A DNA stretch of 64,000 bases from Eledone cirrhosa (Eukaryota): NCBI GenBank assembly GCA_964016885.1, contig OZ024743.1, positions 352,036,001-352,100,000 of the forward strand, given 5' to 3'. Below are positions 21,657 through 52,268 of this stretch, piece after piece. Numbering within the stretch: position 1 is the first letter of the stretch; every line of letters starts with the position of its first letter. Position numbers and translations under genes: made by a program. The notes beneath the pieces are model-generated. The model was not told the DNA's origin, made no database searches, and was given only the letters and a program-made list of their open reading frames with translations.

Positions 21657-21695
<39 letters not shown>

Positions 21696-23550: not shown

Positions 23551-23602
<52 letters not shown>

Positions 23603-26603: not shown

Positions 26604-27458
26604 TTTCCAAATTGAAGGATGAGTATTTAAAACTTTATTTTATCATGAGTTAAGGCTCTATTGATTTTTCCCTGGATTTCACTAAATTCTGTTGGATGAA
26701 TCTATATCCTGATTCTTTTTGAATTGAGTTTGAATTATTTTTCCCGCATCTTACGTTAACTATTTTCCCATTTTGACGCTATAGTCACTTATATATTATG
26801 AAATACTGTGTGCTCCTTGCTCATAATAATTTCTATACTTTTCATTTATATTTATACTCGGATTTCTTTCCTAGAGTGCTTAAATTATTTGTGACTAATC
26901 CTGGTCTTTTTTTTTAAAAACCGCGATAATATTGCTTTTTCTGAACTCCTTATTGTAGAGTTTTTTTCGGAATGTTTGTGACTGTTATTTCATGTAAACA
27001 AACATATGTCTCATTCTGACGTCACCAGCCCTGTCTCCACATGTGCGTTTTATTTTCATAATTACGCATGATGTTGAACTAGCCTGCTTTTAAATTCCCT
27101 TTCTGGCATATTATAATCAGTGAGATTTTGGTTATCGTGTTGAGCTCTGCTGATGATCTAATCCAACCGTGACCATCACCACTGAAAGTTTCGTGAAATA
27201 GTCTTTTCAAGACTATACAGAGCATTTGTAGTTTTTCCAAATTGAAGGATGAATATTTTAAACTTTATTTTATCATGAGTTAAGGCTCTATTGATTTTTT
27301 CCCTGGATTTCACTAAATTCTGTTAGATGAATCTATATCCTGATTCTTTTTGAATTGAGTTTGAATTATTTTTCCCACATCTTACGTTAACTATTTTCCC
27401 ATTTTGACGCTATAGTCACTTATATATTATGAAATACTGTGTGCTTCTTGCTCATAAT
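26604..27458. repeat. ~224 bp direct duplication (26604-26827 / 27234-27458)
   Basis: Near-identical tttccaaattgaaggatga...gctcataat. Confidence 0.9.
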
Positions 27459-27558
27459 GGAAAGAATTACATCCAAATTAGAGGCACAGCGATGGGAACG
27501 AAGTTTGCTCCCGTTTACGCGACCTCTGTAATGGGATACTTAGAACAACAACTCTACC
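27456..27558 (+). pseudogene. Penelope RT fragment starting the second copy of the segmental duplication
   Basis: Matches 5572-5674 (NGKNYIQIRGTAMGTKFAPVYA..MGYLEQQLY) with one substitution. Confidence 0.92.
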
Positions 27559-30500
27559 GAGAAAGTTCGCAACCCGCCGGCGAGGCGTATCCGCCGCCGC
27601 CGACCCGTAGGGTTGCGCAACGCCTGCGGGGAATACCACCGAGTAGGGATTTTGCAGCACGGCCAGGGGGTCCTGTCTATTATATAGGGTAGGCTTGATC
27701 GGACGAGCTCGAAGAAAACGATTCCGGGTGCAACCCGTCGAGAGTCGTGAATATTCCGTTTTCAAGACGGGTACGTGCCGGCTTACCCTATGCTATGTCG
27801 GATGTCTCCGCCTCGACGACATGCCGTCTAGAACTCGTCCGCCCCGCCTGCACGTTAACGCCCGCTCTCCGCCTCCGCTCCGTATTCCGCCTCCGATGCG
27901 TGTTTCCGCCGTTAAGGCGTGCCAAGTTGGCCGCCTCCGACCCGTGTGGCTGCAGGGGAATCCAGCCGATGACGACGCCCGGACGGCGGCGTGGTGTTGC
28001 TTGGTCGATGCGACGACAACACGCCGCCAACTTGCCTCCTTCGGGGAGGCCCCGTGTAGACGGCGGAAAGAAATCCATTTCGCCGGCTAAGCGGTTCCGC
28101 CGCCGACCCGTACTTTTACGAGTAGCTGCCGGGAAAGACAGGCGGCAAGACGGCGTGTATACGCGAAGCGAGGCGAAGTTCCCCGACGCGACACGACGCC
28201 TTCCGTCTTCCGCCTCGAACCCGGCAAACGTTCCTTTATTCGTCCACGCCTTCACGCTTCGATCGTGGAAAGAAATCCAATCCGCCGGCTAGGCGGTTCC
28301 GCTGCCGACCCGTACTTTTACGAGTAGCTGCCGGGAAAGACAGGCGGCAAGACGGCGTGTATACGCGAAGTTCCGCCACGCGACACGACGCCTTCCGTCT
28401 TCCGCCTCGAACCCGGCAAACGTTCCTTTATTCGTTCTCGCCTTGCCGCTTCGATCGCGAGAAAGTTCGCAACCCGCCGGCGAGGCGTATCCGCCGCCGA
28501 CCCGTAGGGTTGCGCAACGCCTGCGGGGAATACCACCGAGTAGGGATTTTGCAGCACGGCCAGGGGGTCCTGTCTATTATATAGGGTAGGCTTGATCGGA
28601 CGAGCTCGAAGAAAACGATTCCGGGTGCTACCCGTGTGGCTGCAGGGGAATCCTCCCGATGACGACGCCCGGACGGCGGAAAGAAATCCATTCCGCCGGC
28701 TAGGCGTTTCCGCCGCCGACCCGTACTTTTACGAGTAGCTGCCGGGAAAGACAGGCGGCAAGACGGCGTGTATACCCGTCGCGAGGCGAAGTTCCGCGAC
28801 GCGACACGACGCCTTCCGTCTTCCGCATCGAACCCGGCAAACGTTCCTTTATTCGTCCACGCCTTCCCGCTTCGATCGCGGAAAGAAATCCAATCCGCCG
28901 GCTAGGCGGTTCCGCTCCCGACCCGTACTTTTACGAGTAGCTGCCGGGAAAGACAGGCGGCAAGACGGCGTGTATACGCGAAGTTCCGCGACGCGACACG
29001 ACGCCTTCCGTCTTCCGCCTCGAACCCGGCAAACGTTCCTTTATTCGTTCACGCCTTCTCGCTTCGATCGCGAGGAAGTTCGCAACCCGCCGGCGAGGCG
29101 TATCCGCCGCCGACCCGTAGGGTTGCGCAACGCCTGCGGGGAATACCACCGAGTAGGGATTTTGCAGCACGGCCAGGGGGTCCTGTCTATTATATAGGGT
29201 AGGCTTGATCGGACGAGCTCGAAGAAAACGATTCCGGGTGCTACCCGTTGAGAGTCGTGAATATTCCGTTTTCAAGACGGTTACGTGCCGGCTTACTCTA
29301 TGCTATGTCGGATGTCTCCGCCTCGACGACATGCCGTCTAGAACTCGTCCGCCCCGCCTGCACGTTAACGCCCGCTCTCCGCCTCCGATGCGTGTTTCCG
29401 CCGTTAAGGCGTGCCAAGTTGGCCGCCTCCGACCCGTGTGGCTGCAGGGGAATCTAGCCGATGACGACGCCCGGACGGCGGCGTGGTGTAGCTTGGTCGA
29501 TGCGACGACAACACGCCGCCAACTTGCTTCCTTCGGGGAGGCCCCGTGTAGACGGCGGAAAGAAATCCATTCCGCCGGCTAGGCGGTTCCGCTGCCGACC
29601 CGTACTTTTACGAGTAGCTGCCGGGAAAGACAGGCGGCAAGACGGCGTGTATACGCGAAGCGAGGCGAAGTTCCCCGACGCGACACGACGCCTTCCGTCT
29701 TCCACCTCGAACCCTGCAAACGTTCCTTTATTCGTTCACGCCTTCTCGTTTCGATCGCCAGAAAGTTCGCAACCCGCCGGCGAGGCGTATCCGCCGCCGA
29801 CCCGTAGGGTTGCGCAACGCCTGCGGGGAATACCACCGAGTAGGGATTTTGCAGCACGGCCAGGGGGTCCTGTCTATTATATAGGGTAGGCTTGATCGGA
29901 CGAGCTCGAAGAAAACGATTCCGGGTGCTACCCGTTGAGAGTCGTGAATATTCCGTTTTCAAGACGGGTACGTGCCGGCTTACCCTATGCTATGACGGAT
30001 GTCTCCGCCTCGACGACATGCCGTCTAGAACTCGTCCGCCCCGCCTGCACGTTAACGCCCGCCCTCCGCCTCCGATGTGTGTTCCGCCTTTAAGGGGCGT
30101 GCCCAGTTGGCCGCCTCCGACCCGTATGGCTGCAGGGGAATCCAGCCGCCGATGATGACGCCCGAACGGCAGCGTGGATAAGCTTGGTCGTCGTCGTCGA
30201 CGCGACGACAACACGCCGCCAACTAGCTTCCTTTGGGGAGGCCCCGTGTAGACGGCGGAAAGTAATCGAATCCGCCGGCTAGGCGGTTCCGCCGCCGACC
30301 CGTACTTTTGCGAGTAGCTGCCGGGAAAGAGATGCGGCAAGACGGCGTGTACACGCGACACGACGCCTTCCGCCTTCCGCCTCGTACCCGGTAAACGTTC
30401 CGCCGTTGATGCGTGCCGAGTCGGCCGCGTCCGACCGGCGGTGGCTGCAGGGGAATCCAGCCGACGACGACGCCCGAACGGCGAAGTGGTGTAGCTTCGC

Positions 30501-30678
30501 CGACGACACGCCGCCTTCTATCTCTCTAGCCATTCTAGGTCCCGCATCGACAGCGGGACCGAAGCCAACCCGCCGTCTAGGCGGTTCCGCAGCCGACTCG
30601 TGGCGGGCGGATCGCCCTTGGGGGATTTGCAACGATTCCGGAGGATGCAGCACGACCAGGGGCTCCTGTCTATTATAT
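27559..30678 (+). repeat. rDNA intergenic spacer subrepeats (upstream part) with duplicated promoter-like motifs
   Basis: GC-rich shuffled subrepeats (cccgtacttttacgagtagctgccgggaaagac etc.). Same family recurs at 43830-46094. Confidence 0.88.
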
Positions 30679-30700
30679 AGGGTAACCTCGGTCGAACGAG
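30645..30700 (+). promoter_or_regulatory. Putative RNA polymerase I promoter / start site (TATATAGGG, +1 near 30679)
   Basis: Last and slightly divergent copy of the gcagcacg..cagggg..cctgtctatTATATAGGGta motif before the unique ETS. Resembles TATAT(A)GGG Pol I initiation motifs of plants and arthropods. Confidence 0.55.
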
Positions 30701-32446
30701 CTTAGTGAACGGAAGGGTGTTAGCCGTTGCAGCTTTCGGTTTACTGCGTAGGTTACGGGTTAGGCGTGTTCGGATACCCTATATGCGATGTCGTCATCGT
30801 CCACGACCCGCCCTCACGTTACAGCCCGTACACGCCGCCATCGACGAATTATTGCCTTTACAGACCGCCGCCGTCCGACCGGACCCACGATAGAAGACGT
30901 TCGTTACCGCTGGAGCAACGCAAATTACTCCTAGGTTGACGCCAACAACGAGCGCCTTCCCGTCCGGGCGACGTAAAAGTTCTGAAAGCCTTTTTCGCCG
31001 AACCTCCTCGCGCCGCCTTTTCCTCGCCTATTCTTTTTTCTTTTTTCTCCTTTTCGACGGCTAGCCGCATTTCGTGACCCGCCTTTCGATTGCGCTTCCG
31101 TCGCGGCAAAAGAATTGCCTTTTCAGACCGCCGCCGCCGTCGCCCGACCGGACCCACGATAGAAAACGTTCGTTACCGCCGGAGCAACGCAAATTACTCC
31201 TCGGTTGACGCAAAAAAACGAACGCCTTCCCGCCCGGTCGGCGTAAAATGTCTGAAAAACCTTTTCGCCGAACGCCTCGCCGCTTCCTCCTCGCCTCTTT
31301 TTTTTTTTTTTTTCGGTCGTTCGCTCGCTCGCTCGCCGACCCTCGGCCTCGACGATTATCCGCCTTCCGAACGACCGCCTTTCCGCCGTCACAGCAGTAG
31401 GTACGCGTCCGTCGTAATAGCCGTCATTTTCATGTAGGAGCAACGCCTAAATGCCCTGCAATGCGTTTGACGACGATCTACGACGGCGACGACGCGCGTC
31501 ACTCTTCCTTGCTGCGACGAAGGTTTTCGTTCGGCTTTTCGTCGTGGACCCGGTCAGGTCATGCCGCTGACCTCGCGTTGCGTCGCCACTGCTGCGGCGG
31601 GCTTGGGTATAGCCGTAGCTACCCTCGTTTTGCCAACGGCGACGCGATATCTATGAAAGAAAGCGGCGTCGTCCCTCCCGAAGGGACACTGGCATCAAGC
31701 CCGGGTGTCCCTGCTTGCGCCGCTGCCTTTTATCGGGTCAGCGTCGTCCAAGTTTGCCCCGGCATACCTAGCCGTTAGGTTACGCGACGGCGGCGCTTTT
31801 CGCGTCGTCGTCGTCGTCTTCCTAACTCTCTTCCGTTGACCGCATTCCGCCGCCATGTCGAACCGATTTCTTTTTTCGTCGCAGTAACGGCGACAGCAGC
31901 TGTTGAATCGAAAGCGGAGGGCGCCGCCGCCGCCTACTTGTCTCTCTCCTCTTCTTCGAGGCCGCATGCTGCTGCCGCCCCGGCATCACGCCTCAGCTCG
32001 CACTTACGCCCAGGGAAACGCTTCCGAAAGCGGCTTCGTGCGATGCCATAGGATTGTAAACCGTCTTGCGAGCTCGTTTTCGTTTGTTTCTTTTCTTTTC
32101 TTTCATCGCCGCCGCCGAGGAGGAGGAAGAAGACTAAACGATTGGCCGGCAGTCGGCGGGCGATTTGTTTTCGTATACGCCCGTTTTTTGTCGACGACGT
32201 CGCTGGGAGAGGAGATGATCTGATTAGATTAGTAAATGTCGCCAAACGCGCAGCGCCGCGTCCTTCTTCTTTTCTCTTCGTTTCTTACCTCCACCGGCTC
32301 GTGGACCGGTTGCCGACATTTCCGTATTTTTTTTTTTTTTTGTTACGTTTTCTCATTCCGCCTACAAACGAGACGAGACGAAATTCGCTGCTGCCGCCTC
32401 CATGCGCTTCTGTTCTCGGTCGTCGTTTTGTATTTCGTGCGGAAGA
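30679..32446 (+). other. 5' external transcribed spacer (with internal ~170 bp duplication ~30860-31030 / ~31125-31300)
   Basis: Unique GC-rich region between the putative promoter and 18S. Confidence 0.6.
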
Positions 32447-34319
32447 TACCTGGTTGATCCTGCCAGTAGTCATATGCTTGTCTCAAAGCTTAAGCCATGC
32501 AAGTGTAAGTTCATGCCGTAAACGAATGGTGAAACCGCGAATGGCTCAGAAACCGGACCTAATCCTCGGGACCGTATTCCTCACCGCGAGGAGAGTGGAT
32601 AACTGTGGCAATTCTAGAGCTAATACATGCAACTGAGGCCGCGATCGCAGGTCGCACCCGGGAGTCGGGTTACAAACGCGCTCAGCGTTCCATCGCTGTC
32701 GTCGTTCCGTCTTCCCGCGCGGTCCCAACAGATCGCGTCGACACGGTCGGCCTTTGCATTGGTCGCGGCGCAAATATTAGACTGAGACCGACGACGCGTT
32801 AGATGCCGTCAGCGCCGTTCGCAGTTCGCTGCGTGCCGGTTGCGCGGTGTCGCGCATCAATTCGACTTTGGTGACTCTGGATAACTGTCAGTACGATCGC
32901 ACGGGCTTAGAATCGCTTCTGGCCTTCGCGCGACGGGTCCCCCGCGAGTCCGCCCTATCAACTGTCGACGGCCCGGTAAGTGCCGACCGTGGTGGCAACG
33001 GGTAACGGGGAATCAGGGTTCGATTCCGGAGAGGGAGCATGCGAAACGGCTACCACATCCAAGGAAGGCAGCAGGCGCGCAAATTACCCACTCCCGGCAC
33101 GGGGAGGTAGTGACGAAAAATAACGACGCGGGACTCTGTCGAGGCCCCGCGATCGGAATGAGTACACTTCAAATCCGTTAACGAGGATCGACCGGAGGGC
33201 AAGTCTGGTGCCAGCAGCCGCGGTAATTCCAGCTCCGGTAGCGTATATTAAAATTGTTGCGTTTGAAAAGCTCGTAGTCGGAATTCGGGTCTCGAAAGCG
33301 CGCTGCGTCGTCAGCGCGTTCGGGGCGACGGCGCCGTTGTCGTTCGCGCGCCGCGCGTCGACTTCGGTCGTCCGTTCGCACTCCCGGCCCTATTCGCCGG
33401 TGCGTGCGCGGTCGGGCCGCAGAGCTCTGCGTGCATCGCCGCTCGGCGTCACGGTGCGGACGTCGCGTTTTTACCTTCTTGCCACGCTTCTTGCCGTTCT
33501 TCTTGCCTATTTTCCTTTCCGCGTTCGGGGACGATGCGACGACGGCGCTTTTGCTTTATCGCGGGCGTTTGCCGTTCGCCTCTCGTTTTCGTTGCGGCGC
33601 TCCGGTCAGGGTTTGGAGTGTCGTCTCGCTTGGCTATTCGGTCGGTTCTTACGTCGTCGTGCCGTCACCTCGCCGCGGTCGCGCGTTCACCTCGCGGTTT
33701 TGTTTTTCTCTCCCTGCGCGTTTGCCTTTTTCTTTTCGAAAGGAGAGGTTCGTCGTCGCCAGGGTTGGATACGACGGCGTGATCGGTTTCGTCGTCGCGT
33801 CGTCTCGGCGCGTCGCTTTCCTGCGGCCGCCGTTTTGTCGTCGCGCGCGTCGTTCCGTTTCGCCGCCGATCCGCACGGTTCCTCCGAGGGTGCTCTTTAC
33901 CGAGTGTCCGAGGCGGCCGGTACGTTCACTGTGAAAAAATTAGAGTGCTCAGAGCGAGCCGCACCGGCTTGCATACGAAAAACATGGAATGATGGAAAAT
34001 GGCCTCGTCCGCGCGTCATCCGTCGGTCTCCGTTCACGACGAGGCAATGATCGAAGGGAGCGATCGGGGCCACTCGTATTGCGACGTTAGAGGTGAAATT
34101 CTTGGATCGTCGCAAGACGCACTGCAGCGACGGCGTGTGGCAAGCACGTTTTCCTCGATCAAGAGCGAAAGTCGGAGGTTCGAAGACGATCAGATACCGT
34201 CGTAGTTCCGACCGTAAACGATGCCGACTGGCGCTCCGCCGGCGTTCGCTTCGATGACCCGGCGGGGAGCCTGCGCGGGAAACTATAGTCGGTTCCGGGG
34301 GGAGTATGGTTGCAAAACA

Positions 34320-34365
<46 letters not shown>

Positions 34366-35074
34366 GCGGCTTAATTTGACTCAACACGGGAAAACTCACC
34401 CGGTCCGGACACCGGTAGGATTGACAGATCGATAGCTCTTTCTCGATTCGGTGGGTGGTGGTGCATGGCCGTTCTTAGTTGGTGGAGCGATCCGTCTGGT
34501 TGATTCCGATAACGAACGAGACTCCGGCCTGCTAACTAGCGCGTCGATTAGTGCTTTTCCGGTAGCGTGGCGGCGCCGAAGCCGTCGTCGGTAAGCTGTC
34601 CTGCGTTCGTTTTTTTTCCCTTTTTCTTCGAGCTCGGGCTTCCGTTGCCGTTGCCGTCGTCGTCGCGTCGTCGTCGTCTTCTTCTTTCGCGAGTTCGCTT
34701 GCGGAATGGAGGAATGAAGGCAGCGCTGGCGGAGGCGGCGGTCGGTTTTTCGGGCTCGGGAGGGGGGGACCGGCGCGATCAGCCCCGGCGTCGGCACGTC
34801 GTCGCGTCCGGGCCAGTCGGTTGGCGAACGCAGCGCTTCTTAGAGGGACGGGCGGCAGAAAGCCGCACGAGGCGGAGCGATAACAGGTCTGTGATGCCCT
34901 TAGATGTCCGGAGCCGCACGCGCGCTACACTGGAGGTATCAGCGGGCGCCACTCCCCCGGCCCGAGAGGGTCGGGAAACCTCTGAACCACCTCCCGTGAT
35001 AGGGATCGGGGCCTGGAACCAACCCCGTGAACGAGGAATTCCCGGTAGGCGCGGGTCATCAGCCCGCGTCGATC

Positions 35075-35117
<43 letters not shown>

Positions 35118-35260
35118 CGAACGGTCCGGTGAGGTCCTCGGATCTGGCCGACGAGTTCGCAGGCCGTGCGGCGGCGTTTCGATTCGGCCGTCAGGTCGGT
35201 TCGTTGCCGTCGTCGGTGCGCTCTCTGATGGCCCGGAGAAGACGACCGAACCCGATCGCT

Positions 35261-35318
<58 letters not shown>
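32447..35318 (+). rRNA. 18S rRNA (~2870 nt, strongly expanded variable regions)
   Basis: Starts tacctggttgatcctgccag, contains gtgccagcagccgcggtaattcc and gtacacaccgcccgtc, ends gaacctgcggaaggatcatta. Confidence 0.97.
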
Positions 35319-35849
35319 CCGCGTATATTATATCGTTTATTGCCGACGCTGCCGCCAAACGAAAGCCGCCTTATTTTCGTTATTCGATGATCACAACAAC
35401 GGTCGGGTTCGTCATCTGAAGACGCCTAGCAGACGGCGTAACCCGTTAAATGGAGCGAGCGCCGTTTTGCGAAATCGCCGCCAATATCGCTTACTGCGCG
35501 TCTACAGCCGCCTAAACCGCTCCTACCGTTATTCTTTTCTTTTGCCGGCGCCAGCACGACGCTCGGCTGATAACATTTGCGCATCGTTCGATTTCGTATC
35601 CGAAAGAACGTATTTTTTCGACGTGCCCTTCTTATTTTTCTCCTCCTCTCACCTCGCCCGCGGAAGCAGCAAAGCAGCCAGCAGCAGACAAACCGCAGCG
35701 AGCAGCGAACGTGAAAACCTCCCGTGAATAACGTCGCTGTCGCCGCCGCCGCCGTCCTCCGCCATCGTCTACCGTTGGTTGTTTCTATGCTTTCGCGTTC
35801 ATTTTACCGTGTTTTTTTTTTCGTTTTCGTTTTCGTTTAAAATTGACAA
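35319..35849 (+). other. ITS1
   Basis: Between 18S and 5.8S. Confidence 0.85.
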
Positions 35850-36010
35850 AACCCTGGACGGGGGATCACTCGGCTCGTCCGTCGATGAAGAGCGCGGCTA
35901 TCCGCGTGAACTGATGCGAATTGCAGGACTCAGTGAACATCGACACCTCGAACGCACATTGCGGCCCCGGGATTCCACCGTCCCGGGGCCCCGTCCGGTC
36001 GAGAGGCGGT
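35850..36010 (+). rRNA. 5.8S rRNA
   Basis: ggatcactcggctcg..gtcgatgaagagcgc...gaattgcagga...gaacgcacattgcggc. Ends approximate. Confidence 0.93.
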
Positions 36011-36609
36011 CACGATACAATCGCGATGTCTGCTGTTTCGCCATGCGCCGCCCGCTCACGAGAGTGAGAGATGAAAGAGAGAAACACATCCGCCTTTTGC
36101 GCTGCTGCCGCTGCCCGCCTTAGCGAAGCGCAGTTTCTTTTCTTTTTCTCTTCTCTTTTGCGCCATGGTAACAGCGGGAAGTCGGGAGTCGCAGAAGAAG
36201 CGAGAGTCGTCGCTCGCGGAACGCTCCGTCTCCCGTATTGAAATAATAACTAACACTTTTCGTCGTTATTTTTCTTTATTTCTCGCCGTTCGCTTCGGAG
36301 ATCGTCGCACGGAAAGAGAAAGATTTAGAAGAAGGGAAGACGAGAAGGGTAAAAAGAAACGCAGTAACACAGGCGCGGTCGTTGTTCGTCGGCCGGCGTT
36401 CGCTCTGCGAGTCGCCAAAAACACAAAGCGTTCGTGTCGGCCGACGAGAAACGATTTCGATTCCGCTTCTTTTTTTCCCATTTCTCTCGTCTTTTCCACA
36501 TTCCGCCTTGGCGCCCGCTCTATATCGCCAACCTCTTCTTTATCAATGCCGCCTTCTTCTTACCGTCCTCGTTCTTCGTATTCAGCGTATTCGGCGTATG
36601 CGAATAGCT
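36011..36609 (+). other. ITS2
   Basis: Between 5.8S and 28S. Confidence 0.85.
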
Positions 36610-38101
36610 GCCCTCGACTCGGACGCGACTACCCGCCGAACTTAAGCATATCGCTAAGCGGAGGAAAAGAAACCAACCGGGATTCCCTTAGTAACGGCGA
36701 GTGAACTGGGAGGAGCCCAACGCTGAATCTCGTCGTCCGCAAGCAGGCCGTCGAGAGCTGTGGCGCAAGGGTCGTACACGGTCGTTCGTTTCGCCCGGCT
36801 AGGTTCGGAGTCCCCTCGATCGGGGCTGCCCAAAGCGGATGCCAGGCCCATTCGGAGCCGGCGGCGGTCGACAGTGTCTCTTTCTTCGGCCCGAGAGTCG
36901 GGTTGCTTGGGAACGCAGCCCAAAGCGGGTGGTAAGCTCCATCCAAGGCTAAATACCGGAACGAGTCCGATAGCCGACAAGTACCGCGAGGGAAAGTTGA
37001 AAAGAACTTTGGAGAGAGAGTTCAAGAGACCGTGAAACCGCCCAGGGGTTAAACGGGTAGGACCGTTCACCGTGATCGCGAGGGGACTCAGTCCGCTGCT
37101 GTTTTAAGGCGCCGTCGTCGTCGGCGGCGGTCTCTCGTTTCGACGAGTCGACCGCCGACCGCCTCGCCGGCGTTACGATTCGCAGGGTGCCGGCATCGGA
37201 CGCACTTCCCCTTCGATCCCTCGTCGCGACCCGTTCCCGTCAGGCTGGATGGCGCGCGGTGTCCGCAGGTCGCAGAGCGGCGTCCCGCCTAGAAAACGAA
37301 CCATTCCCGGTTCGCTTTCGAAGCGGGTTTCCGAAAACAGCGCTTCTCTCGACCGGGCCCGTCGCTCGGCGGTGGTTTTCATCGTCCCAGGCACGGCTAA
37401 CAGGCGGGGACGGGACAAACGCGCGTGTTCCTTTATTAGCCGCAGCGCCGTTCGTATATGCTTAGGTTGGTTTTTTTAAATATCCTTTAAAATTTCTGAT
37501 CGGCTTTCGAGAAAGCGGCCGCCTCGTTCGCTCGCCCCGTTTGCTTTTTCTCTTTTGCTCTCTTTGCGGAGCAGGAGGGAGCGGGTCGCTGGGCGGACGA
37601 GGATCGCGAGCCGTCCGCTGCTGCAGGTCTGCGACGAGCATCGGCAACCTACCCGACCCGTCTTGAAACACGGACCGAGGAGTCCCAGTCGGTTGCGAGT
37701 CGTTGGAGCGAAAGAAATCGAATTTAACGAACTCCGACGGCGAAGTGAAAGCGAGAACGTGACGCGTCGTCGACGGCGGCGTTAGAGGCTGGTTTGAATT
37801 GACGGCATGCGGCATGGCCTTCGGGTCGTGTCGCTGTTGTTTTTTTCTTCTTTTTTCCGCGCCGTCGTAGGCGTTTCGAAGCATCGTTCCCGGGTCGGGT
37901 GTGCGCGTCGCGTGGCGGCTTTCGGGCCGTCGGCGCGGCGCGCTCCGACTCAGGTGTAGCAGGCGGCCGGGGACCCGAAAGATGGCGATCCACGCCCGGT
38001 CGGGACGAAGCCAGAGGAAACTCTGGTGGAAGTCCGAAGCGCCTCTGACGTGCAAATCGATCGTCGGAACCGGGTGTAGGGGCGAAAGACCAATCGAGCC
38101 G

Positions 38102-38144
<43 letters not shown>

Positions 38145-40166
38145 CGCCAGCAGCAGACAGAACGACACGCAATTCCGTCCGGTAAAGCGAACGACTGGAG
38201 GCCCCGGGGACGTTGACGGCCTCGATCTACTCTCGAACTCGGAACGGGCGAAACGGGCCGCTCTCTCTCCCGATCGGAGGCGGCCGCCGTCTCGGCGACG
38301 AATGCACGGTGCCAAGTGGGCCACTTTTGGTAAGCAGAACTGGTGATGTGGGATGAACCGAACGTCCGGCTAAGGTGCCCTACGCTTCGCCCATTAGATC
38401 CCCGAAAGGGTGTCGGTCGATATAGACAGCAGGACGGTGGCCACGGAAGTCGGAATCCGCTCAGGAGTGTGTAACAACTTACCTGCCGAATCGACCGGCC
38501 CCGAAAATGGATGGCGCTGGAGCGAGCGACCGATGCCGGACCGGCCAGGCGATAGGCGAAAAAAGGTAACACGACGTAACTTTCTTCGATGCCTGGTCGA
38601 GTAGGAGGGCGCCGCGGCGTGCACGGAAGCCGCGGGCGTGAGCCGGGGTGAAGCCGACCGCGGGTGCAGATCTCGGTGGTAGTAGCAAATATTCGAACGA
38701 GACCTTCGAAGACCGAAGTGGAGAAGGGTTCCGTGCCAACGGCGGTCGAGCACGGGTCAGTCGGTCCTAAGAAGCGGGCGAAAGCTTGTACGAAAGGCGC
38801 CGGATCCGTTGTCGAGAAAGAGGAAAAAAAAAGAAAAACCCCCCCTTTTTTTTTTTGGCTTCTCTGTTTTTGTTACGGCCGGCCTTGCATCGAAAGGGAA
38901 TCGGGTTAATATTCCCGAACCCGTACTCGGAGAGTGCTCGTCCGTCGGTGGAATTTAACGCGTCGTCGCGTCATCGAAGCCGGCGGTCGGGCGAAGCAGC
39001 GGCAACGCAAGCGAGCCCGGAGACGTTGCCGGGAGCCCTGGGAAGAGTTCTCTCTTCTTCGTAAAGGACCGCGTCCGTGGAATCGGCTCGTCCGGAGATA
39101 CGGATATGGTACCTGTAGAGCGCCGCGTCTCGGGCGGCGTCCGGTGCGCTCTCGGCGGCCCTGGAAAATCCGGGTCCGTAACGATTCGCAGCTCTCGAGT
39201 CGGTCCGTACCCACCATCCGCAGCAGGTCTCCAAGGTGTACAGCCTCTCGTCGATAGCGCCAATGTAGGTAAGAGAAGTCGGCAAAATGGATCCGTACCT
39301 TCGGAAGAAGGATTGGCTCCGAGGACCGGGTCGGTCGGGCCGTGTGTGTGTCGGCCTGTCGGCCGTCTTGTTGTTTTTTTCCAAAAACTCGGGATCGGTC
39401 GCGCGGCACGTCTGTACGCGAAGCGGTGAACCGGTACGGGGCTGTAGCGTTGGCGTCGGACTTGACGTTCGAGCGTCGGTCGGGTGGTCGATTTGCGCCC
39501 GTTTCGTTTGCGTTCGTTTCGTTTTTCCTTGCCCTTCTTTCGGTTGGCGGCGAGGAGAGAGAGGAAGAAGGCGGCGGCGGCGGCTGCGGGTTGGTCGCGC
39601 GGAGGCGGACGGGGTTTGTTGAAAGATTACCGCGGAGGAGGGATGAAGGCGTAGCAGTAGACGGGGGGAGAGGCTTGTCGCTCGCAAGGGCGGTTTGTTT
39701 TTTTTTTCGTTTTTCTGCTCGCTTTTGTTTTGTTCTTTCGGTTTTTTTTTCTCTTTCCTTTACTGTTCGTCGCAGTGCCGGCGGCTCGCGCGTCGTCGTC
39801 GTCTTTTTTTCTTCGTTTTCTTCGTTTTTGTCGGTCGGAAACAAAAACGGGGGGCTTGGAGAGGCGCTAGCTTGGCGTTGGCGAGCGGCGTTTCGGTCGG
39901 TTGCTTTTTGCGACGTTCGATGCGTAGTGGGCGCGAACAACACGGCTCCACGCCCGGGACACCGTGGAGCGACACGGTTTCGGGCTCGTTGGCGCGTCGG
40001 TTAGCTTCCTTTCTTTCTTGTTCGCGAGGAGGAGGGCGGTTGCCGAGACGCGCGGCAGGCGTTCGGCCGGCGGCGAACGGTCAACTCGAAACTGGTACGG
40101 ACCGGGGGAATCCGACTGTCTAATTAAAACAGAGCATCGCGTAGCCGGCCGAGCCGCATAGACGCG

Positions 40167-40198
<32 letters not shown>

Positions 40199-40214
40199 AG
40201 TGAAGAAATTCAAC

Positions 40215-40244
<30 letters not shown>

Positions 40245-40253
<9 letters not shown>

Positions 40254-40466
40254 GTCGGCGCTACCCTTGACGTGGGAAGAGAGCTTAAATCCGTGGTTAG
40301 AGCTGTACGAGTGAGTCAACTTGACGCGTACCTTTGGAAGTTTGACTCCTTTCGGAGGTTGGCGCCCTCTTCGAGGGGTCGGTTCCGGGGTGCGGGTTCG
40401 GGTTGGCTCGGCAGGTTTTACCATACTCGGTTGGTCTGCCACATTAAGGATGAACTAATTGGCGCC
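40245..40466 (+). ncRNA. Predicted HDV-like self-cleaving ribozyme spanning the 28S/insert junction
   Basis: P1 ctctctt/aagagag, P2 ggcgcta/tggcgcc, P3 ccc/ggg, L3 ttgacgt, long P4, J4/2 aCTAA. Pairing done manually. Confidence 0.6.
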
Positions 40467-41411
40467 TAAATTATGATTGTAATAATTATATAAAAATCAT
40501 ATATCCGTACGGTAGCTGGGGGCCGTTTTAAAACCAGTAACCGAGGGGTCGGGATGGGCCCCTTAGGTTTACTAACTGCAGCGGGCCGCTGTGGTGGCTC
40601 CATGATCATTACAGCGAACGTGATGGGATGTGGAGTCGCCGTGGTGGCTTGCTGTGGTACTTAACCACCCTCGAGGGCTGACAGGGAGCCGGGATACGCC
40701 CTCTGGATTAGAGCCGGCTCAAACCTTTTTTTTTTTTTTTTTTTTTGTCCTTGTTTTTTTTTGTGTGGGCGCGGAAGTGCCTGGAAACTCTCTTCCTAGT
40801 TTTTTTTTTTTATTAACTCGGTGAGCGGTCGGATATAATATCCGAGAAGGAAAAGTAAGACGTCTCCGCCGTTCCGCTAGTCTGGTGGTTCGCCTTGGGA
40901 AAGCGATAGAACCACCTTATCCCCCCGTTGCAGGGTTACGCGTTGCTTAAAGGAAAGTGCTTTTTTTTATTATTAACAGTTTCGTTAATAATATTTTAGG
41001 AATAGGAAGGGAGTGATGAAATGGCTTCTGGAGCGCCCCACAACTTTTTTTTTTTTTTTTTATAGAGTACAATGTACGGCCAGGGAGTTTGGAGCCTCCC
41101 TGTGCGGGATTCCGGCAACAGGATCTCCGCGCGGGGTTCGGTTCCGGTTGCTTACTTGGTGCGTACAACCAAGTAAGCAACCGGGAGGGCTTAGTGTCTC
41201 GCATGGCTCGCTCGCTGAGGTGGCTCCCAGCCAGCCCTCGCGGGGTCCATGGCTTGGCCTGCTCTCTTGGCGTGACCAACCAAATTTGACAGGGCACGCC
41301 GTTCATGCCATAGTTTGCTTGATGACGTTGGCCCGTGGGACCACCCACTTTAAAAAAAAGGGAAAGGCGGCTTATACTTTGCAAAAAGTATAAGTTAATA
41401 GCCAGCTAAAA
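40254..41411 (+). mobile_element. Non-coding insertion at the R2 target site of 28S (candidate non-autonomous R2, SIDE-like)
   Basis: Left flank gtaactatgactctctt, right flank tagccaaatgcctcgtcatc. Canonical AAGG is missing at the 5' junction. Ends in aaaa. No RT ORF. Confidence 0.82.
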
Positions 41412-41451
<40 letters not shown>

Positions 41452-41486
41452 CGGATCAACGAGATTCCCACTGTCCCTATCTACTG

Positions 41487-41521
<35 letters not shown>

Positions 41522-41528
41522 CGGATCG

Positions 41529-41568
<40 letters not shown>

Positions 41569-42138
41569 TTTTGTGAGGGCACACGGTAGGCGTAGCATAG
41601 GCGGGAGCAATCTTGCGTCTCTCGGCTGGCGGCAGCGTCGTTTGCGGGTCGCTTGCGGCTTTGCGGCGGCGTTCGCCGTCTGTCGGGTACCGTGCGCGTT
41701 TGCGTCGATGAAAAACCGCCACTTCCGTAGTTTCTTCGCTCACTCGATTGAGAAGGGACGGGGCCGTCGCCGAGCGGTGGTTCATTTATCTGGTGCGAAG
41801 CGTGCGGTGCATGTCGCGCGCGCACACGTTGTGCGCCGACGCAGCCGATGCGCGACCCTTAGTCGAGAACAGTGTCGGTCGGGGAGTTTGACTGGGGCGG
41901 TACGTCTGTCAAAGGGTAACGCAGGTGTCCCAAGGCGAGCTCAGCGTGGACGGAAACCACACGTTGAGCAAAAGGGCAAAAGCTCGCTCGATCTCGATTT
42001 TCAGTACGAATACGGACCGCGAAAGCGTGGCCCATCGATCCTTTCCGAATAGCGGCGAGCTATGCGTCCGCCGAGAGGTGTCAGAAAAGTTACCACAGGA
42101 TAACTGGCTTGTGGCGGCCAAGCGTTCGCAGCGACGTC

Positions 42139-42176
<38 letters not shown>

Positions 42177-43180
42177 CGAAGCAGAATTCGCAAAGCGTTG
42201 GATTGTTCACCCACTAACAGGGAACGTGAGCTGGGTTTAGACTGTCGTGAGACAGGTTAGTTTTATCCTACCGATGCATTGCGTGTAGGCGGCGGCGGTG
42301 GCGGCTGCAGCCACCTTCTCGAAGGCGGCTGCGGTCGGCGTCGCCGCCGGCAACGTCAACTCGGCTACGGCTATCCCGTCCAGTACGAGAGGAACCGCGG
42401 GATCAGAGCAACGGTTTGCGCGCTCGCTCGATAGAGCGGTGGTGCCAGGCTGCCTCTGAGCGATAACGGCTGAACGCCTCTAAGCCGGAACCGTAGCCGG
42501 ACCCGAGTTGTTTTTCGAAAGCGTCTCAACCTTCTTAAGGCGCATGCCTTAGTTTGGCGATTGCCGTCCGTTCGGCGAAGTCGCTTCCCTTTTCGGGGTG
42601 CGCGTCGTCGTCGGCGGCAGCGTCAGCGGAATTGCCATTCTGTGACGATTACGACGATTCGTCGTCGTTGTCGTCCGTTCGATTTGTCGAAAGAGATCGA
42701 GACGAAAAGGATCGCTTGTATACGACTCGACTTGCCGTTCGGAGTGACGTGCTTAGTAGAGCAGCTACCACACTGCGATCTATTGAGTCTCTTCTCACGA
42801 ACGACACGATCCGCCCACCGAGGCGGCAGACACCAAAAAAAAAAAAAGAAATTTGAAAAGCGGCTAAGGAAGGAAGGAAGGAAGGAACGAACGAACGAGA
42901 GATAGCAGCAGCAGCAGCAGCAGCTAGCGGGTTGGAGCAATGACTCGGTTTTCTTTCGACGGGTTAGCGTAGCAACAATGACGACGACGACATACAAACA
43001 AGTCCGCTCCTTAGCCGCCGCCAATTGTTAGGTTCGTTCTTTATTACACTTCCACCGCTGCTACTGCAAACCACCAACCACTTTCCGCGCGCCAACTTTT
43101 ACGACGATTTCGCTCGCTCGCTCGCCGCTCGTTTGCCAGGTTGCGCCAACGACCCTCAAGGTCGATTAGCATCGAAAATA

Positions 43181-43800
43181 GAGAGAGTTCGCGGTGAATG
43201 CGACACAGCCTTGGTTCGAGTGCCGCCGATCCGTCTTCCGAGTTGGTTAGTTTTGTGTATGTTACACGTAGTGAGAGAGTTCGCGGTGAATGCGACACGG
43301 CCTTGGTTAGAGTGCCGCCGATCCGTCTTCCGAGTTGGTTATTTTTGCGTGTGTTACACGTAGCCGCCGCCCATCCGTCGTCCGAGTTGGTTAGTTATGT
43401 TTGACGTGTAGCAGGCGGATTCTGTTTTGTGTGTGTGTCTGTGTGTGATACAAGCCGCCCATCCGTCGTCCGAGTTGGTTAGTTATGTTTGACGTGTAGC
43501 AGGCGGCGGATTCTGTTTTGTGTGTGTGTCTGTGTGTGATACAAGCCGCCCATCCGTCGTCCGAGTTGGTTAGTTATGTTTGACGTGTAGCAGGCGGCGG
43601 ATTCTGTTTTGTGTGTGTGTCTGTGTGTGATACAAGCCGCCCATCCGTCGTCCGAGTTGGTTAGTTATGTTTGACGTGTAGCAGGCGGATTCTGTTTTGT
43701 GTGTGTGTCTGTGTGTGATACAAGCCGCCCGTCTTCCAAGTTATGTTTTAAGTGTAGCCGATGGTGTGTGTGTCTGTGTGTGATACAAGCCGCACATCCG
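43181..43800 (+). repeat. Tandem ~90 bp repeats downstream of 28S (two types)
   Basis: 2x gagagttcgcggtgaatgcgacac... (43181-43360), then 4-5x gccgcccatccgtcgtccgagttggttagttatg...gtgtgtgatacaa. Confidence 0.88.
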
Positions 43801-43829
43801 TCGTCCGTCTTCCAAGTTATGTTTTACGT

Positions 43830-46094
43830 GTAGCCGGCGGAAAGAAATCCAATCCGCCGGCTAGGCGGTTCCGCCTCCGACCCGTACATTTACGAGTAGC
43901 TGCCGGGAAAGACAGACGGCAAGACGGCGGCGTGTATACGCGAAGTTCCCGACGCGACACGACGCCTTCCGTCTTCCGCCTCGAACCCGGCAAACGTTCC
44001 TTTATTCGTTCACGCCTACCCGCTTTGATCGCGGAAAGAAATCCATTCCGCCGGCTAGGCGGTTCCGCCGCCGACCCGTACATTTACGAGTAGCTGCCGG
44101 GAAAGACAGACGGCAAGACGGCGGCGTGTATACGCGACGCGAGGCGAAGTTACAAGACGCGACACGACGCCTCCGTCTTCCGCCTAGAACCCGGCAAACG
44201 TTCCTTTATTCGTCCACGCCTTCCCGCTTCGATCGCGAGAAAGTAATCAATCCGCCGTCGAGGCGGTTCCGCCGCCGACCCGTAAGCTTACGGGTCGGCA
44301 GCGGGGAATACGACCGTCCAGGGCCTTTGCAGCACGGCCAGGGGGTCCTGTCTATTATATAGGGTAAGCTTGATCGGACGAGCTCGAAGAAAACGATTCC
44401 GGGTGCTACCCGTCGAGAGTCGTGAATATTCCGTTTTCAAGACGGGTACGTGCCGGCTTGCACTATGCTATGTCGGATGTCTCCGCCTCGACGACATGCC
44501 GTCTAGAACTCGTCCGCCCCGCCTGCACGTTAACGGCCGCCCTCCACCTCCGCTCCGTCTTCCGCCTCCGATGCGTGTTCCGCCGTTAATGCGTGCCCAG
44601 TTGGCCGCCTCCGACCCGTGTGGCTGCAGGGGAATCGAGCCGATGTCGACGCCCGGACGGCGGCGTGTTGTAGCTTGGTCGACGCGACGACAACACGCCG
44701 CCAACTTGCTTCCTTCGGGGAGGCCCCGTGTAGACGGCGGAAAGAAATCCATTCCGCCGGCTAGGCGGTTCCGCCGCCGACCCGTACTTTTACGAGTAGC
44801 TGCCGGGAAAGACAGGCGGCAAGACGGCGTGTACACGCGACACGAAGCCTTCCGCCTCGTACCCGGTAAACGTTCCGCCGTTGATGCGTGCCGAGTCAGC
44901 CGCGTCCGACCCGTGGTGGCTGCAGGGGAATCCAGACGAACGGCGAAGTGGTGTAGCTTCGCCGACGACACGCCGCCTTCTATCTCTCTAGCCATTCTAG
45001 GTCCCGCATCGACAGCGGGACCGAAGCCAACCCGCCGACTAGGCGGTTCCGCAGCCGACCCGTGGCCGGCGGATCGTCCTTGGGGGATTTGCAACGATTC
45101 CGGAGGATGCAGCACGGCCAGGGGGTCCTGTCTATTATAGAGGGTAAGCTTGATCGGACGAGCTCGAAGAAAACGATTCCGGGTGCTACCCGTTGAGAGT
45201 CGTGAATATTCCGTTTTCAAGACGGGTACGTGCCGGCTTACCCTATGCTATGTCGGATGTCTCCGCCTCGAACGACATGCCGTCCAGAACTCGTCCGCCC
45301 CGCCTGCACGTTAACGCCCGCGCTCCGCCTTCCCCCAGCGATGCGTGTTCCACCGTTAAGGCTTGCCCAGTTGGCCGCCTCCGACCCGTGTGGCTGCAGG
45401 GGAATCCAGCCGATGACGACGCCCGGACGGCGGCGTGTTGTGACTTGGTCGACGCGACGACAACACGCTGCCAGCTAGCTTCCTTCGGGGAGGCCCCTTG
45501 TAGACGGCGGAAAGAAATCTATTCCGCCGGCCAGGCGGTTCCGCCGCCGACCCGTACATTTACGAGTAGCTGCCGGGAAAGACAGACGGCAAGACGGCGT
45601 GTATACGCGAAGCGAGGCGAAGTTCCCCGACGCGACACGACGCCCTCCGTCTTCCGCCTCCGACCCGGCAAACGTTACTTCATTTGTCCACGCCTTCCCG
45701 CTTCGATCGCGGAAAGAAATCCATTCCGCCGGCTAGGCGGTTCCGCCGCCGACCCGTACTTTTACGAGTAGCTGCCGGGAAAGACAGGCGGCAAGACGGC
45801 GTGTATACGCGAAGCGAAGCGAAGTTCCCCGACGCGACAGGACGCCTTCCGTCTTCCGCCTCGAACCCGGCAAACGTTCCTTTATTCGTTCACGCCTTCC
45901 CGCTTCGATCGCGGAAACAAATCCATTCCGCCGGCTAGGCGGTTCCGCCGCCGACCCGTACTTTTACGAGTAGCTGCCGGGAAAGACAGGCGGCAAGACG
46001 GCGTGTATACGCGAAGTTCCGCCACGCGACAGGATCCATTCCGTCTTCCGCCTCGAACCCGGCAAACGTTCCTTTATTCGTTCTCGCCTTGCCG
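43830..46094 (+). repeat. rDNA intergenic spacer subrepeats (downstream part)
   Basis: Same subrepeat family as 27559-30678, with promoter-like motifs at 44356 and 45136. Confidence 0.88.
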
Positions 46095-47715
46095 AGTACT
46101 GACTTTAGAAAGTACATTGAAAAATCTTGGAAGAGATACCTTGACGACTGTTTCATCATCTGGACAGAATCTCTAGATACTCTGGATGAGTTCAATATCC
46201 TCCTGAATAACCTAGACTCATCTCTCCAATTCACAAAAGAGATGAGTAGGACCAAATTACCATTCCTAGATATAATGATAATCAAAAACGACACCACCAT
46301 TACCACGGATATATATTATAAACACACAGACACCCATCAATATCTGAATTTTATGTCGTGCCATCCACCTCATACAAAACGCAACATCCCATACTGCCTA
46401 GCCAGAAGAATTTGTACCATTGTAGAAGATACGAATACCAAGTACAAACGCCTAACAGAACTAAGAGAATTTTTGCTCAAACAAAAATACCCATCTCTAC
46501 TTATAGAAAATGGCATACAGCGGGCTATAAAAATACCTATACAACAACTTAGAACAACCCAAGGAAGAAGAAACCAAGAACTGGTCATACCATTTATAAT
46601 GACACACAACCCATGTCACCAGAATATATTCAACACTGCCAAAGCAAACCTACCGATCATTGCTCAAAGTAATGAATTAAAAGGCTTAATCACAGATCGA
46701 TCTTTGACTCTTAGTAAAAGACAGAGAAAAAATTTGAAGCAATGATAATCGATGCGGCACATGTCAATCCAAACAGGCCGGTCAATATATGAAAACAAAA
46801 ACTGGAAAAATATTCCCAAATGCAATTATGAACTGCAAAAGCAGAAATCTGCATTAAATGCCCGAATTGTGAAGAACTATATGTCGGTCAAACTGGAAAT
46901 GCACTATCGGAACGTGCACGGGTACACCGTCAACAAATCAGAGACCCAAATGTCCGTCAGATACCCCTAAGCGGCCACCTGGCAACATGTGGTCAGGGAA
47001 TATTTATAATATTCCCATTCTACAAATTACACAGCCCAAGTGAAATCAAGAGAAAAATCAAAGAAAATAATTTTATTGATAAATTCAAACCCAAGCTAAA
47101 TGAACAATAATAACGCCTAGGGATATTATTTCTACTACCACTATGACCACGACCACTAACAACAACCACAACAACAATAATAATAATAATAAAAGTGATG
47201 TTGATGGTGATGATTAATAGAAAATGCTATTTTCATCATTTCAAAAAGCAAAACAATTGATACGTTGGGTATGACTATTGGTCGTTAGCATGCTCAACCA
47301 GCCGTGACGCTTAAACCAATCAGCTGTAGTAATTCAGTGAAACTACACACTGATTGGTCGAAATACAGTTTACAGGGCTTTGCATTCCGGGGCCACTTTT
47401 CTCTGTATAAAATGTATAAAAGGTAGTAAATTTACCCATCTCATTACAGTTGAAAATTGCAAACTCGACTGTCACCACATATCATGAACCTGAAGATTGC
47501 GAAAGCATGAAAGTACTTGTTCAATTAACACTTAGAATTTAATATTCTATCATACTATTTCATTATAATACCATATTATATTATATATATTTTAAAGGAT
47601 TGTAAATAAAACGAGTAAATCAGACAAAGTTGGAATTCCTCTTATTAATATAATCTTCTATACACAATCATACACACCCGTGTATATTTACCTATCTATA
47701 TCTATATATATATAT
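46095..47715 (+). mobile_element. Penelope-like element 3' part (RT remainder, GIY-YIG, pseudo-LTR with intact hammerhead 47485-47523), duplicate copy
   Basis: Resumes at the base equivalent to 5695 (agtactgactttagaaag). Extra small deletions relative to copy 1. Confidence 0.92.

Positions 47716-50119: not shown

Positions 50120-50120
<1 letters not shown>
48421..50120 (+). mobile_element. RTE LINE remnant, duplicate of 8091-9790
   Basis: Near-identical sequence with the same stops. Confidence 0.88.
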
Positions 50121-51852
<1,732 letters not shown>

Positions 51853-52236: not shown

Positions 52237-52267
<31 letters not shown>

Positions 52268-52268
52268 G

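What the first reader, a model, noticed from the sequence alone, without database searches (positions are those of the whole stretch)
27559..46094. A complete, circularly permuted rDNA repeat integrated into a Penelope RT gene: footprint of an extrachromosomal rDNA circle
Seen: Penelope sequence stops at ...caactctacc (27558 = 5674) and resumes at agtactgac (46095 = 5695). 20 bp of target (aagaaatagaggaaaaatat) are lost and there is no TSD. The 18.5 kb insert begins gagaaagttcgcaaccc and ends ttctcgccttgccg. In the intact IGS subrepeat at 28430-28475 these two strings are neighbours separated by only cttcgatcgc (10 bp), so joining the ends regenerates a continuous spacer. Known: rDNA arrays shed extrachromosomal circles, and end-joining leaves small deletions without TSDs. 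Inference: a unit-length rDNA circle was opened once and captured at a chromosomal break, creating an orphon with promoter and spacers. The uninterrupted pre-insertion allele is preserved 22 kb upstream. The intact CpG-rich sequence suggests recency.
Basis: partly seen in the sequence, partly recalled or inferred. Interest (0 to 1): 0.88.

Follow-up and report, generated by a model that had tools for sequence, protein, structure and literature searches.

The report
Recurrent reinsertion of rDNA circles
One whole ribosomal-gene repeat, whose two ends are neighbours in the normal array, sits pasted into a dead jumping gene and is assembled as three tandem copies; ten of sixteen scattered ribosomal copies checked in this animal genome show matching ends at different places, which is likely the footprint of ribosomal DNA circles reinserting in the germ line, a long-proposed but poorly documented way for these genes to move.

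Summary
Junctions confirmed: an 18,536-bp rDNA unit replaces 20 bp of a Penelope-like RT gene, no TSD. Its ends are 10 bp apart in other rDNA copies and in high-depth read contigs of the array. Corrections: only about 100 bp of Penelope lie on the left, because the insert sits just inside the joint of a 21.9-kb tandem duplication; insert plus duplicated flank form a 39.5-kb unit assembled three times; the unit is a pseudogene (1,158-bp insert at the R2 site, one base lost in the peptidyl-transferase loop in all three copies), and CpG content does not date it. Main new result: 10 of 16 dispersed rDNA inserts of 4 kb or more close end-to-end within 310 bp, at different points (18S, 5'ETS, 28S end, spacer), with different ages; two carry a non-homologous circle-closing joint (combined p about 1e-5). 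Best reading: repeated capture of rDNA circles at breaks (0.72). No read contig bridged this junction (inconclusive). The scan noted one sister locus before (e1-9572623). Circle-mediated duplication is known; a dated series for rDNA was not found in nine literature searches.

The parts
2524..7391 (+). Penelope-like element, uninterrupted copy: 659-bp direct repeats (2524-3182, 6733-7391, 99.1%) around ORFs 3424-4551, 4458-5507, 5461-6783 (frameshifted; RYLDD motif, C-terminal GIY-YIG)
5675..5694 (+). 20 bp of target present in the uninterrupted copy and absent at the insertion
5572..27458 (+). First copy (X0) of the 21.9-kb duplicated segment; a mosaic of retroelement fragments and TA/TG microsatellites
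27456..27458 (+). Tandem-duplication joint with 3-bp microhomology (AAT): end of X joined back to 5572
27456..27558 (+). About 100 bp of Penelope-like RT sequence (=5572-5674) between duplication joint and rDNA; one substitution (27523) shared by all three units
27559..30662 (+). 5' part of the permuted intergenic spacer: subrepeats of about 0.6-0.9 kb, each with a promoter-like motif (27670, 28567, 29180, 29867)
   Evidence: promoter-like label (TATATAGGG) is recalled, not tested
30663..32446 (+). Last promoter-like motif (30663), likely gene promoter, and 5' ETS
   Evidence: function inferred from position
32447..35318 (+). 18S rRNA gene (2,872 bp, expanded); 10 private substitutions in 2,615 otherwise invariant sites
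35850..36008 (+). 5.8S rRNA gene
36609..42814 (+). 28S rRNA gene (6,206 bp with insert)
40254..41411 (+). 1,158-bp insert at the R2 target site of 28S with no long ORF; similar 1.2-1.4 kb inserts in most other copies, also in 2 of 3 array units
42095..42101 (+). One G missing from the conserved 28S loop (peptidyl-transferase centre; label recalled) in 3 of 3 units here; GGG intact in 13 of 13 other copies where readable
43181..46094 (+). 3' repeats (91-92 bp) and 3' part of the permuted spacer, ending 10 bp short of the insert's first base
46095..64000 (+). Second copy (X1) of the duplicated segment, resuming at Penelope position 5695; continues beyond the window into two more rDNA+X units (window-scale coordinates 66903-107011 and 107012-146498)

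Best explanation
This is a dead, circularly permuted single rDNA unit, likely the remains of an extrachromosomal rDNA circle that was opened once in the spacer and end-joined into a chromosome break, likely in the same repair event that duplicated 21.9 kb of the target, and the resulting 39.5-kb composite is assembled as three tandem units, likely multiplied by unequal crossing-over. Steps. Shown: permuted single unit with ends 10 bp apart in the array; 20 bp of target lost; no TSD; 3-bp microhomology at the duplication joint about 100 bp away; three units with identical junctions; lesions in the rRNA core shared by all three, hence older than the amplification. Inferred: (1) recombination between array repeats popped out a monomer circle (seamless, so no closing joint is expected); (2) one break opened it; (3) end joining with small losses on both sides put it into the target; (4) the flanking 21.9-kb direct repeats then let the unit be amplified. 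The Penelope target is incidental: sister inserts sit in other repeats. The same process acted repeatedly over a long time: 10 of 16 dispersed inserts close end-to-end at different points.
For: Closure 10 bp in 37 places in other copies, over 987+1,077 bp in one copy and in read contigs of depth 15,000-20,000. Sister inserts close with gaps of 5, 20, 42-55, 68, 67-80, 135, 259, 288 and 306 bp; three of them are cut in single-copy parts of the unit (28S end, 5'ETS, 18S) with conditional p 0.002, 0.004, 0.010. 10 of 16 within 310 bp against 10% expected (p 5e-7); 4 of 16 with conditional p at most 0.01 (p 2e-5); Fisher combination p 9e-6. Two sister inserts (C2:7.57 Mb, C14:23.82 Mb) have a non-homologous internal joint that closes a linear array fragment, the AB-to-BA signature of a circle. 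Donor gap and target loss are alike where the empty site is known: 10/20 bp here, 20/13 bp and 288/241 bp (n=3). Private substitutions range from 0.05% to 2.0% among inserts, so events are of different age. Variant patterns in X (left: X0 versus X1-3; right: X0-2 versus X3) are what unequal crossing-over between first and last copy gives. Insertion within 103 bp of the duplication joint by chance is about 1%; X0 versus X1-3 divergence (0.74-0.81% overall) is near twice the insert's private divergence of 0.38%.
Against: This insert has no closing joint, and its ends lie in spacer subrepeats where tight closure arises by chance in about 1-3%; gaps of 135-306 bp in the spacer are uninformative (74% of spacer-only random pairs close within 310 bp; 6 of 16 within 80 bp gives only p 0.03-0.08 against that null). 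6 of 16 inserts do not close (gaps 381, 807, 1,121, 6,382 bp, two with none). No contig bridged 46094/46095 among the 24 longest listed of 63 laid from three runs, nor 27558/27559 among 30 listed of 3,112, and the locus-specific base at 27523 was not seen in those contigs. X divergence is uneven (about 1.0-1.2% left, 0.17% right), so simultaneity of duplication and insertion is only roughly supported. Units 1 and 3 differ at 1 of 18,190 rDNA sites, so the third unit may be an assembly duplicate. A reciprocal exchange with the array gives the same sequence.
Confidence: 0.72

Rival explanations
1. No free circle: one break in the rDNA array and one at the target were mis-joined crosswise, and a later crossover between rDNA repeats on the two products restored both chromosomes, leaving a whole number of units with in-register ends; or both target ends copied outward from one site of the tandem array and annealed one unit apart.
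For: Predicts exactly what is seen at this locus: in-register ends, small losses, no closing joint. The nearby duplication joint and short Penelope piece with microhomologies fit replicative template switching. PMC7450558 (passages) says breakpoint features cannot separate end joining from template switching.
Against: Needs two linked rare events for each of about ten inserts on at least five chromosomes; does not predict the closing joints of two sister inserts; would often leave several units, whereas the closing inserts carry one coding region.
Confidence: 0.17
2. A linear array fragment with two independent breaks was captured, and its ends fall in register only because the spacer is made of subrepeats.
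For: Both ends lie in subrepeats; 6 of 16 inserts do not close, so linear capture or heavy trimming also occurs. A weak hairpin (-5.4 kcal/mol) spans the closure point and could favour breaks at the same register.
Against: Closure within 10 bp arises in 14 of 1,500 random draws and 2.8% of spacer-only pairs; break points of sister inserts differ, so there is no shared fragile site; cannot explain closure in 18S, ETS and 28S.
Confidence: 0.06
3. The junctions are an assembly chimera between collapsed rDNA and a Penelope repeat.
For: No bridging contig seen; both partners are high-copy repeats; units 1 and 3 are nearly identical.
Against: The same base-exact junctions stand in unit 2, which differs from units 1 and 3 at 28-29 evenly spread sites (0.15%, 21 transitions) and by an extra 871 bp; the insert has its own 29 shared private substitutions and differs from the array in reads and assembly; the joints lack the long overlaps an assembler needs; contigs drop rare links between high-depth repeats and the runs may be of another individual. 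Inflated copy number (three instead of one or two) remains possible.
Confidence: 0.05

Closest known systems
Duplication through circular DNA intermediates (human cSDPs, PMC7450558, 12 of 28 passages seen; PMC7188851, part 1 of 4 read; cattle translocations as cited there)
   Same: Permuted order relative to the donor, non-tandem position, short indels or 1-3 bp microhomology at the opening point, no TSD.
   Different: Donor is a tandem array, so the circle can close seamlessly and this insert has no novel closing joint; one donor has produced about ten inserts with different opening points; 'rDNA' does not occur in PMC7450558.
Extrachromosomal rDNA circles and the hypothesis that they found new rDNA loci (Proux-Wera et al., PMC3622299, 5 passages seen; ERC reintegration model in PMC10666004, 7 passages seen)
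   Same: Unit-length rDNA outside the array, captured at a break, as PMC3622299 proposed while stating that no experimental evidence for reintegration at new sites existed.
   Different: Here junction-level genomic traces in an animal, at many sites; a monomer, not a multimer, became amplifiable through a flanking duplication; the amplified copy is a pseudogene. PMC10666004 concerns reintegration into the array itself and favours unequal sister exchange.
eccDNA-mediated germ-line insertions in mammals (bioRxiv 10.64898/2026.09.03.749254, 4 passages seen)
   Same: Circularly permuted (AB-to-BA) insertions with terminal microhomology.
   Different: Those are at most 5 kb in source span and 80 of 82 intra-chromosomal; here 4-26 kb rDNA units spread over several chromosomes.
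rDNA orphons / dispersed rRNA pseudogenes (PMC3225859 seen as search listing and abstract start only; otherwise recalled)
   Same: Isolated, decaying copy of a tandem gene family away from its array.
   Different: Whole unit with spacer and promoter-like motifs, permuted, and secondarily amplified with 21.9 kb of captured flank.

Membership tests
Circle-mediated duplication (AB-to-BA) | Ends of the insert are adjacent in the donor | tested here: met
   10-bp gap in other copies and in read contigs
Circle-mediated duplication (AB-to-BA) | Novel internal joint where the circle closed | tested here: inconclusive
   None in this insert (its spacer order is shared with older copies; a recombination-closed circle leaves none); present in 2 sister inserts
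Circle-mediated duplication (AB-to-BA) | Only short indels or microhomology at the insertion point, no TSD | tested here: met
   20 bp lost, 6-of-7 imperfect microhomology left, blunt right; but a 21.9-kb duplication joint lies about 100 bp away
Circle-mediated duplication (AB-to-BA) | Physical circles exist in the germ line of this organism | not testable with these tools
   No circle-seq data examined
rDNA orphon (pseudogene) | Outside the main array, flanked by non-rDNA | tested here: met
   pure tandem units lie at C12:25.05-25.18 Mb next to an assembly gap (taken as the main array, inferred)
rDNA orphon (pseudogene) | Escape from concerted evolution, lesions in conserved core | tested here: met
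   18S private substitutions 10 of 2,615 versus 0 of 2,573 for the array (p 0.002); coding and spacer rates not different (p 0.26); lost G in 28S loop
Active nucleolar organiser | Intact, transcribed rRNA genes | tested here: not met
   Core lesion and R2-site insert in all three units; transcription itself not tested
Penelope-like element (target) | RT plus C-terminal GIY-YIG, flanked by direct pseudo-LTR repeats | tested here: met
   GIY-YIG PF01541 E 1.2e-6 (RVT_1 not hit on these frames), atlas clusters with RVT_1/GIY-YIG at 0.96, RYLDD, 659-bp direct repeats; clade not tested
Retrotransposed rRNA pseudogene | Limited to transcribed sequence, TSD or poly(A) | tested here: not met
   Insert includes about 6 kb of spacer and has no TSD

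The most novel reading that the evidence does not exclude
In this lineage rDNA circles behave as a recurrent germ-line mobile element: most full-length dispersed rDNA copies are reintegrated circles of different ages, and a monomer that lands in a tandem duplication gains flanking repeats that let it grow into a new array, showing step by step how rDNA loci are born (here with a dead gene).
Probability: 0.55. Interest if true: 0.8.

Novelty: new variant of a known kind. Interest (0 to 1): 0.66.

Why it matters
rDNA loci change chromosomal position often in evolution and the mechanism is open; reinsertion of rDNA circles has long been proposed with little direct trace (PMC3622299). One genome with about ten permuted units, opened at different points, of different ages and with readable junctions makes the idea testable: the end-closure test can be run on any long-read assembly, and the inserts are presence/absence markers for population PCR. 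This locus adds the next step, amplification of a single unit through a captured flanking duplication, which removes the need for a multimeric circle. It also warns that such orphon arrays can be mistaken for active rDNA loci.

Tried and rejected
Read support: contigs of three runs of one sample, one further run and one RAD run were laid on both junctions; no bridging piece was listed; contigs show presence, not absence, the best run held 0.44 of the words and lacked the 27523 variant, so this is no verdict. Depth could not test copy number. CpG content as a clock: rejected. TSDs at sister inserts: no word longer than 6 bp shared by the flanks, and no large flank duplication like the one here, in 12 loci examined. 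Empty site of the C4:236.76 Mb insert: no close paralog; the C25 insert lies in a tandem satellite, target loss about 0.4-0.5 kb, uncertain. Site-specific cutting (R2 or other) as source of unit-length pieces: rejected, the ends are not at the R2 site and differ between inserts. Penelope-driven insertion: rejected, sister inserts lie in other repeats. The 1,158-bp insert shows only a 31-bp match to the 4,969-bp RT-bearing insert at the same site in another copy, so I did not establish its R2 origin. Rfam at gathering threshold gave nothing on a 500-bp 18S piece. The script for indels private to this locus printed none although the motif count shows one; the motif count and the Rfam alignment are what I rely on. 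Rows left out of the 16: the C12 tandem array, two old loci whose ends ran beyond the fetched DNA (C7:29.28 Mb, C14:23.17 Mb), 13 short 5.8S fragments, 5 other fragments under 1.5 kb; 2 of 35 5.8S hits and 73 of 113 28S-end candidates were not scored or fetched. Organism: not determined; expanded rRNAs and earlier scan notes suggest a cephalopod (untested).
Full report
Observation. The junctions are as described: Penelope-like sequence stops at 27558 (=5674) and resumes at 46095 (=5695); 20 bp are lost and there is no target-site duplication. Rfam places 18S at 32447-35318, 5.8S at 35850-36008 and 28S at 36609-42814. The target is Penelope-like: 659-bp direct repeats at 2524-3182 and 6733-7391, an RYLDD motif, a C-terminal GIY-YIG domain and atlas neighbours with RT and GIY-YIG. 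The insert's last and first bases are 10 bp apart in 37 places in other rDNA loci of this genome, contiguously over 987 + 1,077 bp in the copy at C2:114.07 Mb, and in read contigs of depth 15,000-20,000, which continue behind 46094 with 10 bases and then the insert's start. The left joint has 6 of 7 matching bases between target and donor continuation; the right joint is blunt.

Only about 100 bp of Penelope lie left of the rDNA. They follow a joint (3-bp microhomology at 27456-27458) that links the end of a 21.9-kb segment X back to its start at 5572. Both rDNA junctions and this joint occur three times, 39.4-40.1 kb apart. The locus is X0, then three times [100 bp Penelope, rDNA, X], then the native right flank. 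The 'intact allele' is X0. rDNA copies 1 and 3 differ at 1 of 18,190 sites, copy 2 differs from them at 28-29 sites and is 871 bp longer. X0 differs from X1-X3 in its left half (1.0-1.2%), X3 differs from X0-X2 in its right part (0.17%), where it shares nine states with downstream paralogs. This is the pattern left by unequal crossing-over between the first and last X. Identical junctions in two diverged units argue against an assembly chimera; the third unit may still be an assembly duplicate.

State of the genes. The 28S carries a 1,158-bp insert at the R2 site (40254-41411); inserts of 1.2-1.4 kb at that site are also in 2 of 3 array units, so this alone does not mark the orphon. All three units lack one G in the conserved 28S loop at 42095-42101, which is intact in 13 of 13 other readable copies (the peptidyl-transferase label is recalled). 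At sites invariant in all other copies the locus has 35 private substitutions in 9,330 (0.38%), 29 shared by all three units; 18S has 10 of 2,615 against 0 of 2,573 in the C12 array (p 0.002), and coding and spacer rates do not differ (p 0.26). The unit decays neutrally and was dead before it was amplified; by these counts amplification falls in about the last fifth of its history. CpG o/e is 1.3-1.5 in every copy and says nothing on age.

Genome-wide test. I fetched DNA around 33 of 35 5.8S hits and nine further loci found with 28S-end and ETS probes. Outside the tandem array at C12:25.05-25.18 Mb, 16 independent inserts of 4 kb or more had both ends readable (two C25 copies with identical flanks counted once). 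Ten close within 310 bp: this one (10), C4:236.75 Mb (5), C2:7.57 Mb (20, at the 28S end), C3:366.04 Mb (42-55), C2:166.88 Mb (68, in the 5'ETS), C14:23.82 Mb (67-80), C1:80.94 Mb (135), C4:153.43 Mb (259), C6:69.58 Mb (288, in 18S), C2:114.06 Mb (306). Six do not. Of the three loci found without 5.8S that span both ETS and 28S end, one closes. Random end pairs on the array unit close within 310 bp in 10% (250 draws), but in 74% if both ends are in spacer subrepeats, so the wide spacer gaps carry little weight. Conditional on each start, closure as tight as observed had p 0.009 (this locus), 0.002, 0.004 and 0.010 for the three single-copy-region cases; 4 of 16 at p at most 0.01 gives 2e-5, the Fisher combination over all 16 gives 9e-6, whereas 6 of 16 within 80 bp against the spacer-only null gives 0.03-0.08. 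Two inserts show the full signature of a circle: at C2:7.57 Mb a non-homologous joint links spacer back into 28S and the 20 bp missing at its ends are present internally; at C14:23.82 Mb the ETS is joined to the 28S end and the piece is opened in the spacer. Empty-site paralogs give target losses of 13 bp (donor gap 20) and 241 bp (donor gap 288), next to 20 bp (gap 10) here, a hint, from three cases, that donor and target ends were trimmed together. Private divergence runs from 0.05% to 2.0%: a series of events, not one burst.

Mechanism. Most likely (0.72) a monomer circle popped out of the array by recombination between repeats, was broken once in the spacer and was end-joined into a break. 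Landing within 103 bp of the duplication joint by chance is about 1%, and X divergence overall (0.74-0.81%) is near twice the insert's private divergence, so I put the odds that duplication and capture were one repair event at about two to one; the short Penelope piece could be a locally templated patch primed by the 6-of-7 match (inference). The 21.9-kb direct repeats then made the unit amplifiable. The chief rival (0.17) is a crosswise mis-joining of an array break and a target break, resolved by a crossover between rDNA repeats, or two-ended copying around one unit; it gives the same sequence here but does not predict the closing joints. Chance register of a linear piece (0.06) and chimeric assembly (0.05) are less likely.

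Read support. No contig bridging the junctions was listed (24 of 63 and 30 of 3,112 pieces shown, longest kept), 26 of 52 RAD reads showed the uninterrupted Penelope form, and the locus-specific base at 27523 was absent from the contigs. Such contigs drop rare links between repeats and may be from another individual, so the junctions are neither confirmed nor refuted by reads.

Comparison. Duplication through circles is known from human and cattle (PMC7450558, passages; PMC7188851, first of four parts) and from short germ-line insertions (bioRxiv 10.64898/2026.09.03.749254, passages). For rDNA, reinsertion at new sites was proposed without evidence (PMC3622299, passages) and is still cited as a possibility (PMC10946416, passages); for reinsertion into the array itself unequal exchange is favoured (PMC10666004, passages). 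In nine full-text searches (top 10-20 titles seen in each, most subscription journals absent, no supplements read) I saw no report of a series of permuted rDNA orphons. Verdict: a real feature as far as the assembly can show, a new variant of circle-mediated duplication, interesting chiefly as one of a dated series and as a monomer that began to form an array.

Noticed in passing
G000:C2:166887574-166892542 (L044:7574-10000, L045:1-2542): 4,969-bp insert at the R2 site of the youngest orphon, with a 1,214-codon open frame (C2H2 zinc fingers and RT): a likely full-length R2 carried along in the orphon.
   Followed up: partly
window 40254-41411: 1.16-kb insert without long ORF at the R2 site; 1.2-1.4 kb relatives in most rDNA copies of the genome, and a 5,957-bp compound insert at C2:251.16 Mb.
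   Followed up: partly
G000:C4:352.18-352.25 Mb (L018-L025): A second tandem duplication with a 27.7-kb period directly downstream, sharing the right 5 kb of X at 98.6%; the region is prone to tandem duplication.
   Followed up: partly
G000:C4:351.986-352.041 Mb (L026-L030 and window 1-5213): Large inverted duplication (96-98%) upstream, including an inverted copy of the Penelope 5' part.
   Followed up: no
G000:C25:19.1-23.8 Mb: A tandem satellite with at least 40 near-identical copies hosts one rDNA insertion present twice with the same flanks, once with one unit (14.6 kb) and once with two (34.1 kb): a second case of unit gain at an orphon.
   Followed up: partly
G000:C12:25104246-25166615: One spacer of the tandem array is expanded to about 62 kb of 0.7-kb subrepeats.
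   Followed up: no
L086 (C2:251167637 onward) and L147 (C14:23824247 onward): Two rDNA inserts end next to telomere-like CCCTAA repeats.
   Followed up: no
G000:C7:29270001-29280148: Old rDNA orphon preceded by at least 10 kb of satellite derived from the 3' 91-bp repeats.
   Followed up: no
13 loci, e.g. C1:148195319, C1:75734274, C1:62761435: Isolated 5.8S fragments of 60-290 bp, several matching the mature 5.8S almost end to end, which suggests RNA-templated copies.
   Followed up: no
window 9058-9663, 7876-8901, 13613-14785, 20279-21067: Fragments with PHD finger, two further RTs and an LTR-retroelement RNase H/integrase region inside the duplicated segment.
   Followed up: no
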